From a virus, in IMG/VR virus record IMGVR_UViG_3300031521_000042, positions 11,883-75,882 of that record: DNA of 64,000 bases; one strand, given 5' to 3'. The translations under genes were made by a program, and so were the position numbers. How positions within the stretch are numbered: position 1 is the first letter of the stretch; each line of letters begins with the position of its first letter. Positions 41,472 to 43,618 of this stretch are shown in pieces. The notes under the pieces are model-generated. The model searched no databases. It saw nothing but the letters and a program-made list of their open reading frames with translations, and was not told the origin of the DNA.

Positions 41472-42971
41472 ATGAAAAAAGAGCTAGAAGAAATACAAAA
41501 AATAGAATTAGACAATTGTGTAGTGGAAATAAATAAAGCAAAAGATAATATTGAACAAAGTATTATAAAAATTGGTCAATGGCTAACTACTGCAAAAAAC
41601 CTAATGAAACATGGAAAATGGGAAGACTGGTTAGAATTAAATGTTGGTTATACTAAAATGACTGCAAGTAGATATATGAAGGCATATAACTTGATTAATA
41701 CAGTTCCTAAAGAAATTGAAGATAAAGTTGAAAAATTAGGTGGTACTAAAATAATAGAATTATCTACACTTAAAACAGAACAAGTAAAAGATATTGTAGT
41801 TAATAATGATGTTGAAAATATGAGTGTGAGAGAATTAAAAGAAATTGTAAAGGGGTTTAAAAAGTCAAATAAAGAATCTAAAAGTAACATCGATGTTACT
41901 TTTGAAAATGATACTAAAGAAATAATTGGAACGCCAAAAGAATTAATGCAACTAGAAGAAAGCGTTGATACTGAAAAGGTATTGTTAGATACAATTGTAT
42001 TAAATACTGAATTAAGAAATAGAACAGATTCAGATGAAACAATTACTATAACTTTGGTTGCAAGATTTGAAGCCAAAGAAATAACTTTTAAAGAGATAAA
42101 TGCGGTAATAATTAAAGAAAAATATGATTTACCAATATTTTTTAATCAGAAGTTATTTGAAGAATATATAGGAGATAAATGTAATCATGATTTATATTCA
42201 GACTATCAAAAATATGATTGTAATATGGATAAAAAAGAAGACAGGACATATTACAGTATATTTGATAGAGATTTAGAGTGGCAAGAAGCTATCAAATGTT
42301 GGGACGAAGAAGACGAAGGTGCAATTGATTGGAACAAAAATAATAATGTAGATAATAATACATATCAATTAATAAAAACTTATTTAGATACAACAAAATA
42401 TTTATGTGTGTACAAAGATTATAAACTTAAGGGAACATTTATAGATGGTAAATTAGATGATGTACAACAATTATGTAAATATGATAGCAATTTAAATTAT
42501 GATATTTTAGAAGCATTATACAATAAACTAGAACTTCAAATGACTTCATACGAAAAGAGACAAGAAAAAAGAGATGAAACTGATAGAATAGCTAGAGAAC
42601 TTAGACAACAGAAGCAAAAGAGATACGAAGAAGCATATAATCTTTGGAAAACTTCATATCAACCATACTCTATGGGTAAATATAAATTTGAAGATATTTG
42701 GGATGAATATGGAGAAATTAATAATTATAAGTTATGGAGAGAGTTATGTGACTTTGTAGATTCCCAAAGAAAAACACAACAGGACAGATGGAAAGATTAT
42801 GATTTTGGAGGGATGTTTGGAAGTGGTTCTATAACTGTTAAAGAAGAAGATAAGTCAACATATAAACAGTTTTATAGAAAATTAGCGATGGAGTTTCATC
42901 CTGATAAACTTGGTGGTGATACTAAGGCAATGCAATTAGTAAATGAGCTAAAGAAAAACTGGGGAATATAA
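41472..42971 (+). CDS. DUF3102-domain protein with C-terminal J-domain
   Basis: IGQWLTTAKNLMKHGKWEDWLELNVGYTKMTASRYM (DUF3102-like); YRKLAMEFHPDKLGGDTKAMQLVN (J-domain HPD). Confidence 0.75.
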   Translation: MKKELEEIQKIELDNCVVEINKAKDNIEQSIIKIGQWLTTAKNLMKHGKWEDWLELNVGYTKMTASRYMKAYNLINTVPKEIEDKVEKLGGTKIIELSTLKTEQVKDIVVNNDVENMSVRELKEIVKGFKKSNKESKSNIDVTFENDTKEIIGTPKELMQLEESVDTEKVLLDTIVLNTELRNRTDSDETITITLVARFEAKEITFKEINAVIIKEKYDLPIFFNQKLFEEYIGDKCNHDLYSDYQKYDCNMDKKEDRTYYSIFDRDLEWQEAIKCWDEEDEGAIDWNKNNNVDNNTYQLIKTYLDTTKYLCVYKDYKLKGTFIDGKLDDVQQLCKYDSNLNYDILEALYNKLELQMTSYEKRQEKRDETDRIARELRQQKQKRYEEAYNLWKTSYQPYSMGKYKFEDIWDEYGEINNYKLWRELCDFVDSQRKTQQDRWKDYDFGGMFGSGSITVKEEDKSTYKQFYRKLAMEFHPDKLGGDTKAMQLVNELKKNWGI

Positions 42972-43075
42972 TAGAAATGGACTGAATAAATGTGGATAAA
43001 TTTATAAGACTTTAGATATTATTAAATTAATTCTAAAGTCTTTTATTTTTATGCAATTAAAGGATATAAAAACTA

Positions 43076-43103
43076 TTGACATATAATAGTAAAAGAGTAT
43101 AAT
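43076..43103 (+). promoter_or_regulatory. Consensus SigA promoter for an sRNA
   Basis: TTGACA(43076)-16 bp-TATAAT(43098), with no credible ORF downstream. Confidence 0.7.
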
Positions 43104-43109
43104 AGAAAT

Positions 43110-43188
43110 TGTAAAGAAGTTAAAAACAAAATTTAGATAAAGAATTTCATGCGAATAAGATACTGAGTGCTACGGTGTCTTATTTTTT
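43110..43188 (+). ncRNA. Candidate antitoxin sRNA (about 80 nt)
   Basis: Lies between the promoter and the terminator aataagatact-gagtgctac-ggtgtcttatt-tttt; contains AAGAATTTCATGC, complementary to the start region of the convergent peptide mRNA. Confidence 0.6.
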
Positions 43189-43333
43189 ATATCTAAAAAT
43201 AGTAAAAGACAAGTAATATATAAATAGTCTACCATCTCACGTTAGTGCTAGTAACGTATATACAAGACCTTATAAAATTACTTATCTTTATATTAAACTA
43301 TCTTATCATTTGTAATTTTAGTTAAATGGAAGC

Positions 43334-43447
43334 TTAACTAAATATGTACTTAATAATCGGCTCTACACAGTTAAGTAGTGCAGTATAATATATTAATTTA
43401 ACTGTAACTAATTCTTTATCATTAGAAATTGAGTTTAAGAATTTCAT
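43334..43447 (-). CDS. Small peptide, candidate type I toxin (37 aa, not in the ORF track)
   Basis: SD GGAGG-8 nt-ATG; MKFLNSISNDKELVTVKLIYYTALLNCVEPIIKYIFS; promoter TTGTAA-17 bp-TATAAT on the minus strand (about 43520-43492). Confidence 0.6.
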   Translation of the reverse strand: MKFLNSISNDKELVTVKLIYYTALLNCVEPIIKYIFS

Positions 43448-43618
43448 GCTTATCGCCTCCCTTGTCCATTGTTATTCGAGATGGCAATATAATTATAACA
43501 ATGTATGTAAGCAATTACAATTTAATGGAAAATAAATTTGGAAAATATGTAAATATTGTAACATTCCCTTACAAATGGTATAATTAGAAAAATACTATTT
43601 AATAGGGGTTGGATAATA

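What the first reader, a model, noticed from the sequence alone, without database searches (positions are those of the whole stretch)
43076..43520. Un-annotated type I toxin-antitoxin candidate with par/Fst-like architecture
Seen in the sequence: a + strand consensus promoter (TTGACA-16-TATAAT) drives an approximately 80-nt RNA with no credible ORF, ending in a hairpin terminator (43154-43188). A convergent minus-strand promoter (TTGTAA-17-TATAAT) drives a 37-aa peptide with a GGAGG SD and a hydrophobic second half (MKFLNSISNDKELVTVKLIYYTALLNCVEPIIKYIFS). The 13-mer AAGAATTTCATGC is a direct repeat at 43140-43152 (in the sRNA) and 43437-43449 (over the peptide start codon), so the sRNA would pair with the translation start although the two genes do not overlap there. 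Established: convergent RNAs, a shared terminator and direct repeats read in opposite directions define the Enterococcus pAD1 par (RNA I/Fst, RNA II) locus. Inference: this is a phage-plasmid addiction module whose peptide I do not recognise as Fst, so it may be a new toxin family.
Basis: partly seen in the sequence, partly recalled or inferred. Interest (0 to 1): 0.85.

Follow-up and report, generated by a model that had tools for sequence, protein, structure and literature searches.

The report
Two-site antisense toxin-antitoxin-like phage cassette
A 450-base cassette in a large Clostridium phage encodes a tiny membrane peptide and a separate 80-base RNA that can bind the peptide's message at two places; the layout is that of RNA-controlled toxin-antitoxin pairs, but neither the peptide nor the RNA matches a described family.

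Summary
The promoters, terminator, 37-aa ORF with GGAGG and the direct repeat are all at the stated coordinates, and the repeat is in fact 24 nt (21/24).

I found ten variants of the cassette, in seven specificity types. They come from related large phages in peat metagenomes and from one isolate, Clostridium sp. M14. Across these types the sRNA and the mRNA change together at two separate sites:
- **Site 1:** 10-13 nt over the start codon.
- **Site 2:** the sRNA terminator loop against a hairpin loop in the mRNA 3' UTR. Earlier scan notes on other genomes gave this lead, and I tested it here.

The mRNA also keeps three structural features: a 5' end that pairs with either the Shine-Dalgarno sequence or a 3' element, a long covarying 3' hairpin, and an ORF under purifying selection (pN/pS about 0.25).

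This is a real antisense-controlled small-peptide module with type I toxin-antitoxin logic close to pAD1 par. It is not a par/Fst member: the terminator is not shared, the peptide has no PXXXG motif, and there are no Pfam, NCBIfam, PHROG or Rfam hits. Toxicity, transcription and the phage-plasmid addiction role remain untested.

The same scan flagged the B-type cassette earlier on other DNA.

The parts
43076..43103 (+). sRNA promoter (-35 TTGACA 43076-43081, 16-nt spacer, -10 TATAAT 43098-43103)
   Evidence: 12/12 consensus match. Both hexamers are invariant in all ten variants while the spacer varies.
43110..43190 (+). Putative antitoxin sRNA, about 80 nt: an unstructured AU-rich 5' half followed by the terminator hairpin
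   Evidence: Fold. Covariance model R1 scores it 84 bits, E about 1e-11, as the only strong hit in the window. Homologues were found in 8 other phage records. No Rfam match. The ends are inferred, not mapped.
43129..43152 (+). sRNA site 1: complement of the mRNA start region (exact 13-mer 43140-43152, extended 24 nt), directly 5' of the terminator stem
   Evidence: Duplex -19.1 kcal/mol against -7.9 +/- 2.3 for shuffled sRNA, 0/500.
43153..43185 (+). sRNA intrinsic terminator, 13-bp stem; the 7-nt loop AGUGCUA (43166-43172) is sRNA site 2. A T-run follows at 43186-43191.
   Evidence: (4 of 13 pairs compensatory).
43193..43485 (-). Putative toxin mRNA, about 290 nt (TSS near 43485, 3' end near 43193-43199)
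   Evidence: Conserved promoter, 5' end and 3' hairpin. The ends are inferred, not mapped.
43492..43520 (-). mRNA promoter (-35 TTGTAA 43520-43515, 17-nt spacer, TG-extended -10 TATAAT 43497-43492)
   Evidence: TTGTA(A/T) and TGnTATAAT are kept in the other variants while the spacer varies; the two most divergent variants, L145 and L146, shift this element slightly.
43477..43485 (-). mRNA 5' end GCCAUCUCG. It pairs either with the SD region or with the 3' element; the two helices are mutually exclusive.
   Evidence: RNAalifold 5'-SD helix, 7 pairs, one compensatory. The 9-bp 5'-3' helix is 100% paired in 7 sequences and in all ten variants.
43456..43461 (-). Shine-Dalgarno sequence GGGAGG, 8 nt before the ATG
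   Evidence: Conserved in all variants.
43426..43449 (-). mRNA site 1: start codon region (-2 to +22; exact complement -2 to +10) bound by the sRNA
   Evidence: Pairing is 85% of cells in register against 30-47% when slid.
43334..43447 (-). 37-aa ORF (stop included): polar N-terminus with an S/N-D-K/N-E-L motif, hydrophobic C-terminal two thirds
   Evidence: An ORF is kept at the same place in every variant, 26-40 aa. pN/pS 0.27 and 0.25 in two close pairs. 78%-identical relative P0001.
43238..43258 (-). Inner hairpin of the mRNA 3' UTR. Its loop (complement at 43244-43250, UAGCACU) is mRNA site 2, complementary to the sRNA terminator loop.
   Evidence: extended: loop-loop complementarity of 7-9 nt in all seven types, with a different sequence in each.
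43231..43239 (-). 3' element UGAGAUGGU, directly 3' of the kissing hairpin, complementary to the mRNA 5' end
43200..43290 (-). Long 3' hairpin of the mRNA (outer stem 43205-43217 with 43277-43289), followed by a U-run (43195-43199). This is the mRNA's own putative terminator and 3' protection.
   Evidence: (I10, I15). 15 of 22 pairs carry compensatory changes.

Best explanation
This is a self-contained, mobile, two-gene module with type I toxin-antitoxin logic, carried in the accessory region of large Clostridium phages.

**Components.** A moderate promoter makes an mRNA of about 290 nt for a 26-40-aa peptide (37 aa here) that has one hydrophobic, probably membrane-spanning, segment. A consensus promoter on the other strand makes a convergent sRNA of about 80 nt that does not overlap the mRNA.

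**Proposed mechanism (inferred).** The sRNA binds the mRNA in trans at two separate places.
1. The loop of the sRNA's terminator hairpin kisses the loop of a hairpin in the mRNA 3' UTR.
2. The single-stranded stretch just 5' of that terminator then pairs with the start codon and the first codons, which blocks ribosome binding.
3. The mRNA's own 5' end pairs either with the Shine-Dalgarno sequence or with a 3' element right next to the kissing hairpin. The second option would place the two sRNA target sites side by side.

**Shown versus inferred.** Shown by comparison of sequences: both intermolecular pairings, the mRNA helices, both promoters, and selection on the reading frame. Inferred: the order of binding, that translation is blocked, that the freed peptide damages the membrane and is toxic, and that the module stabilises the phage or excludes rivals.
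For: **Homologues.** Ten variants in seven specificity types were recovered from IMG/VR and JGI contigs and from one isolate.

**Site 1 (start codon).**
- In nine of ten variants the longest sRNA/mRNA complement (10-13 nt) lies on the start codon. In the tenth (F) the same 13 nt pair with one G-U.
- Among the eight variants tabulated, all are paired at -2 to +5.
- Double-sided changes occur in the core at -2, -1, +2, +6, +7 and +8. One is a single clean double change between the close relatives C and C'.
- 85% of cells pair in register against 30-47% when slid.

**Site 2 (loops).** The sRNA terminator loop and the 3'-UTR hairpin loop are exactly complementary over 7-9 nt in all seven types, with seven different sequences. 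The cross-type matrix computed on five types (eight variants) gives 7-9 on the diagonal and mostly 3-6 off it.

**mRNA structure.** 90% of cells paired against 35-50% when slid; 16 of 31 pairs compensatory; 0/500 shuffles reach the observed value. The 5'-SD helix is.

**Coding.** The frame is open in every type, with a chance of 0.03-0.09 each. pN/pS is 0.27 and 0.25. A 95%-identical contig from an RNA library carries 3 synonymous and 3 conservative changes in the ORF (my codon reading).

**Peptides.** Types B, C and E have 18-24 uncharged residues and a Kyte-Doolittle mean of 2.1-2.7.

**Cassette behaviour.** Present, absent or duplicated at different intergenic sites. Two copies lie 2.3 kb apart in L094, and two orthogonal types lie in one record, G001.

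**Literature.** SD and 5'-end sequestration, and a kissing contact followed by start-site pairing, are the known par mechanism (PMC7472228).
Against: - No transcript ends, levels or strands are known. The only RNA-library evidence is one assembled contig over the ORF, and it could be DNA carry-over.
- Toxicity is untested.
- The window's own peptide is only weakly hydrophobic and has charged residues inside the segment.
- The D-type peptide has only about 13 hydrophobic residues.
- Polarity (polar N-terminus, hydrophobic C-half) is the reverse of Fst and of the C. difficile toxins.
- All occurrences come from one phage lineage, so the variants are related and the shuffle statistics overstate independence.
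- E-type cassettes have ATA in place of ATG, so their translation is uncertain.
Confidence: 0.66

Rival explanations
1. The RNA pair is real, but the peptide is not a toxin. It would be a small phage membrane protein with a regulated function (lysis timing, superinfection exclusion, interference with a host membrane complex), kept silent by the sRNA until a certain stage.
For: - Everything shown here concerns regulation, not toxicity.
- The cassette sits among moron-like genes: Rha, cell-wall-binding proteins and a Sie-like OB-fold protein.
- The window's peptide is only moderately hydrophobic.
Against: - The full set of features is the signature of type I toxin mRNAs (PMC7472228; T1TAdb preprint). 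These features are a consensus sRNA promoter against a weaker mRNA promoter, a sequestered SD, a protected 5' end, 5'-3' pairing and a dedicated trans-antisense RNA.
- The cassette moves and duplicates as a unit, and it diversifies in specificity. That pattern is expected for selfish or competing modules rather than for a stage-specific structural function.
Confidence: 0.22
2. It is a highly diverged true member of the par/Fst (Fst/RNAII) family, not a separate family.
For: The same overall logic is present: convergent promoters, a direct repeat over the translation start, a loop-loop contact, and intramolecular helices that hide the SD and the 5' end (PMC7472228). Fst/RNAII loci are structurally heterogeneous (T1TAdb preprint).
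Against: - No bidirectional terminator.
- The peptide lacks the N-terminal hydrophobic domain with PXXXG and the charged C-terminal tail, and gets no Pfam or NCBIfam hit even at E = 10.
- No Rfam antitoxin family matches at E up to 10.
Confidence: 0.08
3. The features are a chance combination of promoter-like and repeat-like sequences in AT-rich intergenic DNA.
For: Promoter-like hexamers are as common as in shuffled sequence in this 25% G+C region: 22 found against 21.9 expected.
Against: Seven sequence types keep both promoters, both pairings, the ORF and the mRNA helices, while the sequence between them diverges to about 69% identity.
Confidence: 0.02

Closest known systems
Enterococcus faecalis pAD1 par (RNA I/Fst with RNA II), the Fst/RNAII family
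   Same: Convergent promoters. The antitoxin pairs with the translation start through DNA direct repeats read in opposite directions. A first contact between hairpin loops at the 3' ends. Intramolecular helices in the toxin mRNA that hide the SD and the extreme 5' end (PMC7472228; here).
   Different: - The RNAs do not share a bidirectional terminator. The loop-loop site is a second duplicated sequence in a separate 3'-UTR hairpin.
- There is one long repeat instead of DRa and DRb.
- The peptide has the opposite polarity and no PXXXG motif.
- No Pfam or Rfam membership.
Staphylococcus aureus SprA1/SprA1AS and SprA2/SprA2AS
   Same: The antitoxin represses translation by pairing at the start region through a domain outside any overlap, so it acts in trans (PMC6393315 abstract; T1TAdb preprint).
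   Different: The Spr antitoxins are cis-encoded and overlap the mRNA 3' end, and PepA1 is Fst-like. Here no overlap is predicted and the peptide is unrelated.
Clostridioides difficile prophage type I TA (CD0977.1-RCd11 and relatives)
   Same: Small peptides with a strong RBS, paired with antisense RNAs, carried on clostridial phages and proposed to maintain them (PMC7699646).
   Different: Those toxins have a hydrophobic N-terminus and a lysine-rich tail, and their antitoxins overlap the toxin transcript. There is no sequence similarity here. The neighbouring 'module 2' seen in relatives (L003, L009) has that layout; the cassette in the window does not.
hok/sok and Helicobacter aapA/IsoA toxin mRNAs
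   Same: Long-distance 5'-3' pairing and SD sequestration keep the toxin mRNA inert. These features are used as family descriptors in T1TAdb.
   Different: Those are Gram-negative systems with fully overlapped antisense RNAs and unrelated peptides. I did not test for 3' processing here.

Membership tests
par / Fst-RNAII type I TA | Convergent promoters for toxin mRNA and antitoxin sRNA | tested here: met
   Both promoters are conserved while their spacers vary.
par / Fst-RNAII type I TA | Shared bidirectional intrinsic terminator that gives complementary 3' stem-loops | tested here: not met
   No U-run follows the hairpin on the mRNA strand in any of the 8 variants checked. The mRNA has its own 3' hairpin and U-run.
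par / Fst-RNAII type I TA | Direct repeats transcribed in opposite directions that let the sRNA cover the translation start | tested here: met
   One repeat of 12-24 nt rather than DRa and DRb; it covaries.
par / Fst-RNAII type I TA | Loop-loop (kissing) contact between the 3' hairpins of the two RNAs | tested here: inconclusive
   Loop complementarity of 7-9 nt covaries in seven types, but it lies between two different hairpins. Kissing itself is a biochemical property that I could not test. A YUNR motif appears in 4 of the first 5 mRNA loops by eye, which is not significant.
par / Fst-RNAII type I TA | Intramolecular helices in the toxin mRNA that sequester the SD and the extreme 5' end | tested here: met
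   Predicted and conserved with compensatory changes. Not probed experimentally.
par / Fst-RNAII type I TA | Fst-type toxin: N-terminal hydrophobic domain with PXXXG, charged C-terminal tail | tested here: not met
   The peptide sequences show a polar N-terminus, a hydrophobic C-half and no PXXXG. No Pfam or NCBIfam hit at E up to 10.
par / Fst-RNAII type I TA | Antitoxin RNA matches an Rfam antitoxin family | tested here: not met
   cmscan at E up to 10 on the window and on the B-type locus returned only chance hits.
Type I toxin-antitoxin systems (general) | Small (<60 aa) hydrophobic peptide encoded by a short structured mRNA | tested here: met
   26-40 aa with a clear transmembrane-length segment in types B, C and E; weaker in A, F and D.
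Type I toxin-antitoxin systems (general) | Dedicated antisense RNA that base-pairs with the toxin mRNA | tested here: met
   Two covarying intermolecular sites.
Type I toxin-antitoxin systems (general) | Peptide toxic on overexpression and neutralised by the RNA; labile antitoxin, stable toxin mRNA | not testable with these tools
   Needs expression and half-life experiments. The only support is inference from a protected mRNA 5' and 3' end against an unstructured sRNA 5' half.
C. difficile CD-RCd type I TA | Toxin with a hydrophobic N-terminus and a lysine-rich C-tail; antitoxin overlapping the toxin transcript | tested here: not met
   Opposite peptide polarity and no predicted overlap. The family's features are taken from PMC7699646.
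SPbeta bsrG/SR4-type toxins | Sequence similarity to toxins of deposited Bacillus or other phages | tested here: not met
   tblastn of the A, B and C peptides against 50,697 phage records gave only chance hits with E of 2 or more. A remembered resemblance of the B-type GG motif to BsrG was not confirmed.

The most novel reading that the evidence does not exclude
A new family of purely trans-acting type I toxin-antitoxin cassettes. Specificity would be set by two short sequences that are duplicated within each cassette: a kissing loop and a start-codon repeat. At least seven natural, mostly non-cross-reacting address pairs have evolved by coordinated change of both copies. This would let several cassettes coexist in one jumbo phage genome and could serve competition between related phages. 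The kissing loop changes faster than the start-site repeat: E and E2 share site 1 but have different loops, and so do A and F.
Probability: 0.35. Interest if true: 0.75.

Novelty: new variant of a known kind. Interest (0 to 1): 0.62.

Why it matters
[quoted passage not shown] Few families have comparative support for every RNA-RNA contact.

This locus has that support in natural variation: two intermolecular sites and three intramolecular helices all covary, so a complete mechanistic model can be tested directly by compensatory mutagenesis.

It also shows that the par strategy, a loop contact followed by start-site pairing, can exist without any transcript overlap. That matters for search tools that assume overlap in Gram-positive families (T1TAdb preprint).

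The set of seven address pairs could serve as orthogonal translational repressors. It may also show how phage-borne modules avoid cross-neutralisation.

The isolate Clostridium sp. M14 carries one variant, so experiments are possible.

Tried and rejected
- **B-type peptide (40 aa).** No word-sharing protein among 5.8 billion.
- **phmmer of the 37-aa peptide** against 1.84 billion representatives. It found only the A' variant.
- **ESM Atlas.** Best score 0.77, which is uninformative.
- **tblastn of the peptides against phages and plasmids, and blastn of the A and F cassettes.** Only chance hits. The short 86% match to two Streptococcus phages covers only the promoter.
- **Genome contigs.** The exact pattern found nothing and the portal protein has no relatives there, so the host came from cluster names instead.
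- **Metagenome pattern scan.** A BLAST filter rescued the true loci.
- **RNAduplex on full-length RNAs.** It gave long loopy duplexes everywhere in this AT-rich RNA and was dropped for exact-run, register and windowed analyses (then 46, 64, 76).
- **Read laying.** All runs are stored as contigs, so there are no starts, ends or strands. The RNA-library contig over 43277-43454 is only a weak hint of expression, and uncovered parts mean nothing.
- **Phage-plasmid reading.** Ten ORFs from the left part of the window gave PhoH, ClpP, a phosphoesterase, NT5C and HTH_36, with no partition or replication family. The question stays open.

Full report
**What is in the window.** The coordinates in the finding are accurate.
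- A 12/12 sigma-70-type promoter (43076-43103) faces the only terminator-like site in the 2.5 kb scanned. That site has its stem at 43153-43185, followed by a T-run. Together they define an RNA of about 80 nt with no ORF.
- On the other strand, TTGTAA-17-TATAAT with a TG extension (43520-43492) precedes GGGAGG, an ATG 8 nt later, and a 37-codon frame (43334-43447).
- The 13-mer AAGAATTTCATGC occurs twice in 64 kb, whereas no shuffle gave two copies. The repeat extends to 24 nt with 21 identities.
- Because the two genes are read in opposite directions, the sRNA copy is complementary to the mRNA from -2 to +10 around the start codon. This windowed duplex is -19.1 kcal/mol, against -7.9 +/- 2.3 for shuffled sRNA.
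- Rfam has no match. Pfam, PHROGs and NCBIfam have none for the peptide.
- The window is part of a 75.9-kb IMG/VR record, about 31% of a large phage; a related record is 218 kb at 88% completeness.
- The neighbours are a Rha-like regulator, a DUF3102/J-domain protein, a cell-wall-binding protein and a Sie-like OB-fold protein.

**Relatives.** A relative of the J-domain gene led to a first homologous cassette with a different sequence (L003). Pattern scans, a BLAST filter and a covariance model of the sRNA then gave ten variants in seven types:

| Type | Locus |
|---|---|
| A | window |
| A' | L094 |
| F | L146 |
| B, B' | L009, L007 and identical copies |
| C, C' | L059, L140 |
| D | L003 |
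| E, E2 | L131, L145 |

- Most come from peat metagenomes, as does the window.
- F lies in an isolate: its neighbouring proteins are WP_165416732.1 and WP_165416731.1 of Clostridium sp. M14. The host genus is therefore Clostridium.
- Cassettes are 69-85% identical to the window overall. All of them nonetheless keep the -35 and -10 hexamers of the sRNA promoter. Nearly all keep the mRNA promoter as well; it is slightly altered in the two most divergent variants, L145 and L146.

**Two intermolecular sites that covary.**

*Site 1.* In nine of ten variants the longest exact sRNA/mRNA complement (10-13 nt) lies on the start codon. In F the same 13 nt pair with one G-U.
- The paired sequence differs between types: A GCAUGAAAUUCUU, B GCAUGAAACAUU, C CAACAUGAAACA, D GUACAUAUGAAAC, E UAAAAUAAAA.
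- Aligned on the start codon, all eight variants tabulated are paired from -2 to +5.
- Both sides have changed in the core at -2, -1, +2, +6, +7 and +8. This includes a single clean double change between C and C' that also changes codon 3.
- Sliding the register drops pairing from 85% to 30-47%.

*Site 2.* This lead came from earlier notes of this scan on the B-type cassette in other genomes, and I tested it across all types. The loop of the sRNA terminator is exactly complementary to the loop of a small hairpin in the mRNA 3' UTR.
- The sRNA loop sequences are A AGUGCUA, B AGUUCCAGU, C GUGUCUAG, D AAUGUCGG, E GUGCAAA, E2 AUUGGUACU and F GAGUACCA.
- In the cross matrix over five types, cognate pairs give 7-9 nt and non-cognate pairs mostly 3-6.
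- E and E2 share site 1 but have different loops, as do A and F. The loop therefore diverges faster.

**The mRNA.** The RNAalifold consensus and a pair count on a structure I specified give four conserved helices.
- Overall, 90% of cells are paired against 35-50% when slid, 16 of 31 pairs carry compensatory changes, and no shuffle out of 500 reaches the observed values.
- A long 3' hairpin with a U-run is the mRNA's own terminator. It encloses the kissing hairpin.
- The first nine bases of the mRNA can pair with GGGAGGC, the Shine-Dalgarno sequence.
- Alternatively, they can pair with UGAGAUGGU, which follows the kissing hairpin directly. This 5'-3' helix is intact in all ten variants. D has CUUA/UAAG and C' has CCU/AGG in place of CUC/GAG.
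- The two helices exclude each other. I cannot say which one is the inert form.
- The sRNA terminator does not serve the mRNA: no U-run follows it on that strand in any variant. The two RNAs are therefore predicted to end back to back without overlap. This is the main departure from par.

**The peptide.**
- The frame stays open at the same place in every type, 26-40 codons long, with a chance probability of 0.03-0.09 each.
- pN/pS is 0.27 for A/A' and 0.25 for C/C'.
- A 95%-identical contig from a bioreactor RNA library differs in the ORF by three synonymous changes plus L24I, L25I and Y20F (my reading).
- All peptides have a short polar N-terminus, often with a D-K/N-E-L motif, followed by a hydrophobic stretch. 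That stretch has transmembrane length in B, C and E, is weaker in A and F, and is short in D.
- This polarity is the reverse of Fst and of the C. difficile toxins.
- No relatives exist in Pfam, NCBIfam, PHROGs, 1.84 billion representative proteins (apart from A'), deposited phages or plasmids.

**Interpretation.** The RNA-level evidence makes a functional antisense pair close to certain. The overall design is that of type I toxin-antitoxin systems and comes closest to pAD1 par as described in PMC7472228. The shared design features are:
- a strong sRNA promoter;
- a structured, end-protected mRNA with a hidden ribosome site;
- a dedicated RNA that covers the start codon;
- a small hydrophobic product;
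- behaviour as a mobile cassette, with copies at different intergenic sites, two copies 2.3 kb apart in L094, and two non-cross-reacting types in one record.

I propose that loop-loop contact comes first and start-site pairing second. The 5'-3' helix would bring the two target sites together. In the sRNA the two binding segments are adjacent, and in the folded mRNA the kissing hairpin abuts the helix formed by the 5' end. That order, the toxicity of the peptide, and the biological role (maintenance, exclusion or competition) are inferences.

The locus fails three defining tests of the Fst/RNAII family: the bidirectional terminator, the Fst-type peptide and the Rfam match. I therefore file it as a new variant of the type I kind and not as a par member.

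**Limits.** No transcript mapping was possible, because all runs are stored as contigs. The phage-plasmid idea was neither supported nor excluded.

Noticed in passing
L003:5640-5900 and L009:5130-5560 (also L006-L008); absent from the window: A second, unrelated TA-like module lies next to the cassette in relatives. It has a 47-aa peptide with an N-terminal hydrophobic segment and a charged tail behind GGAGGTG. A convergent RNA with a TG-extended -10 promoter ends in a GC-rich terminator that overlaps the 3' end of the ORF, which is the classical 3'-overlap layout. No Pfam, NCBIfam or Rfam hit.
   Followed up: partly
L131:1704-1805 (-) and L145:6959-7057 (-): E-type cassettes carry ATA where every other type has the ATG. 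The frame stays open and conserved from that codon, the next in-frame TTG is 29 nt from the SD, and the sRNA carries the matching change. This suggests either a weak non-canonical start or decay of the toxin gene.
   Followed up: partly
L094:440-940 and L094:3230-3426; G001 (L131 and L140): Some phage genomes hold two cassettes. In L094, A and A' have the same address sequences and lie 2.3 kb apart. In one 85-kb record, E and C' have different addresses.
   Followed up: partly
window 42993-43055: A 31-nt inverted repeat followed by a T-run lies just after the J-domain gene and just before the sRNA promoter. It is also seen upstream of the cassette in several relatives (L007, L009, L059 and L130). 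It may be the terminator that insulates the cassette from upstream transcription.
   Followed up: no
window 41472-42971: A 499-aa protein combines an N-terminal DUF3102 domain with a C-terminal J-domain-like HPD motif; the DnaJ match is below the Pfam cut-off. An 88% identical copy is in L003 and a 39% identical copy is in an unrelated viral contig, L004, which lacks the cassette.
   Followed up: no
window 43277-43454: A 182-nt contig from a 2025 bioreactor metatranscriptome library matches the ORF region at about 95% identity. A relative of the A-type cassette therefore exists outside peat and may be transcribed; DNA carry-over is not excluded.
   Followed up: partly
L146 (IMGVR_UViG_2872351278_000001): The genes beside the F-type cassette are proteins of Clostridium sp. 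M14. A 264-aa relative is annotated in Clostridium botulinum (NFT08175.1).
   Followed up: partly
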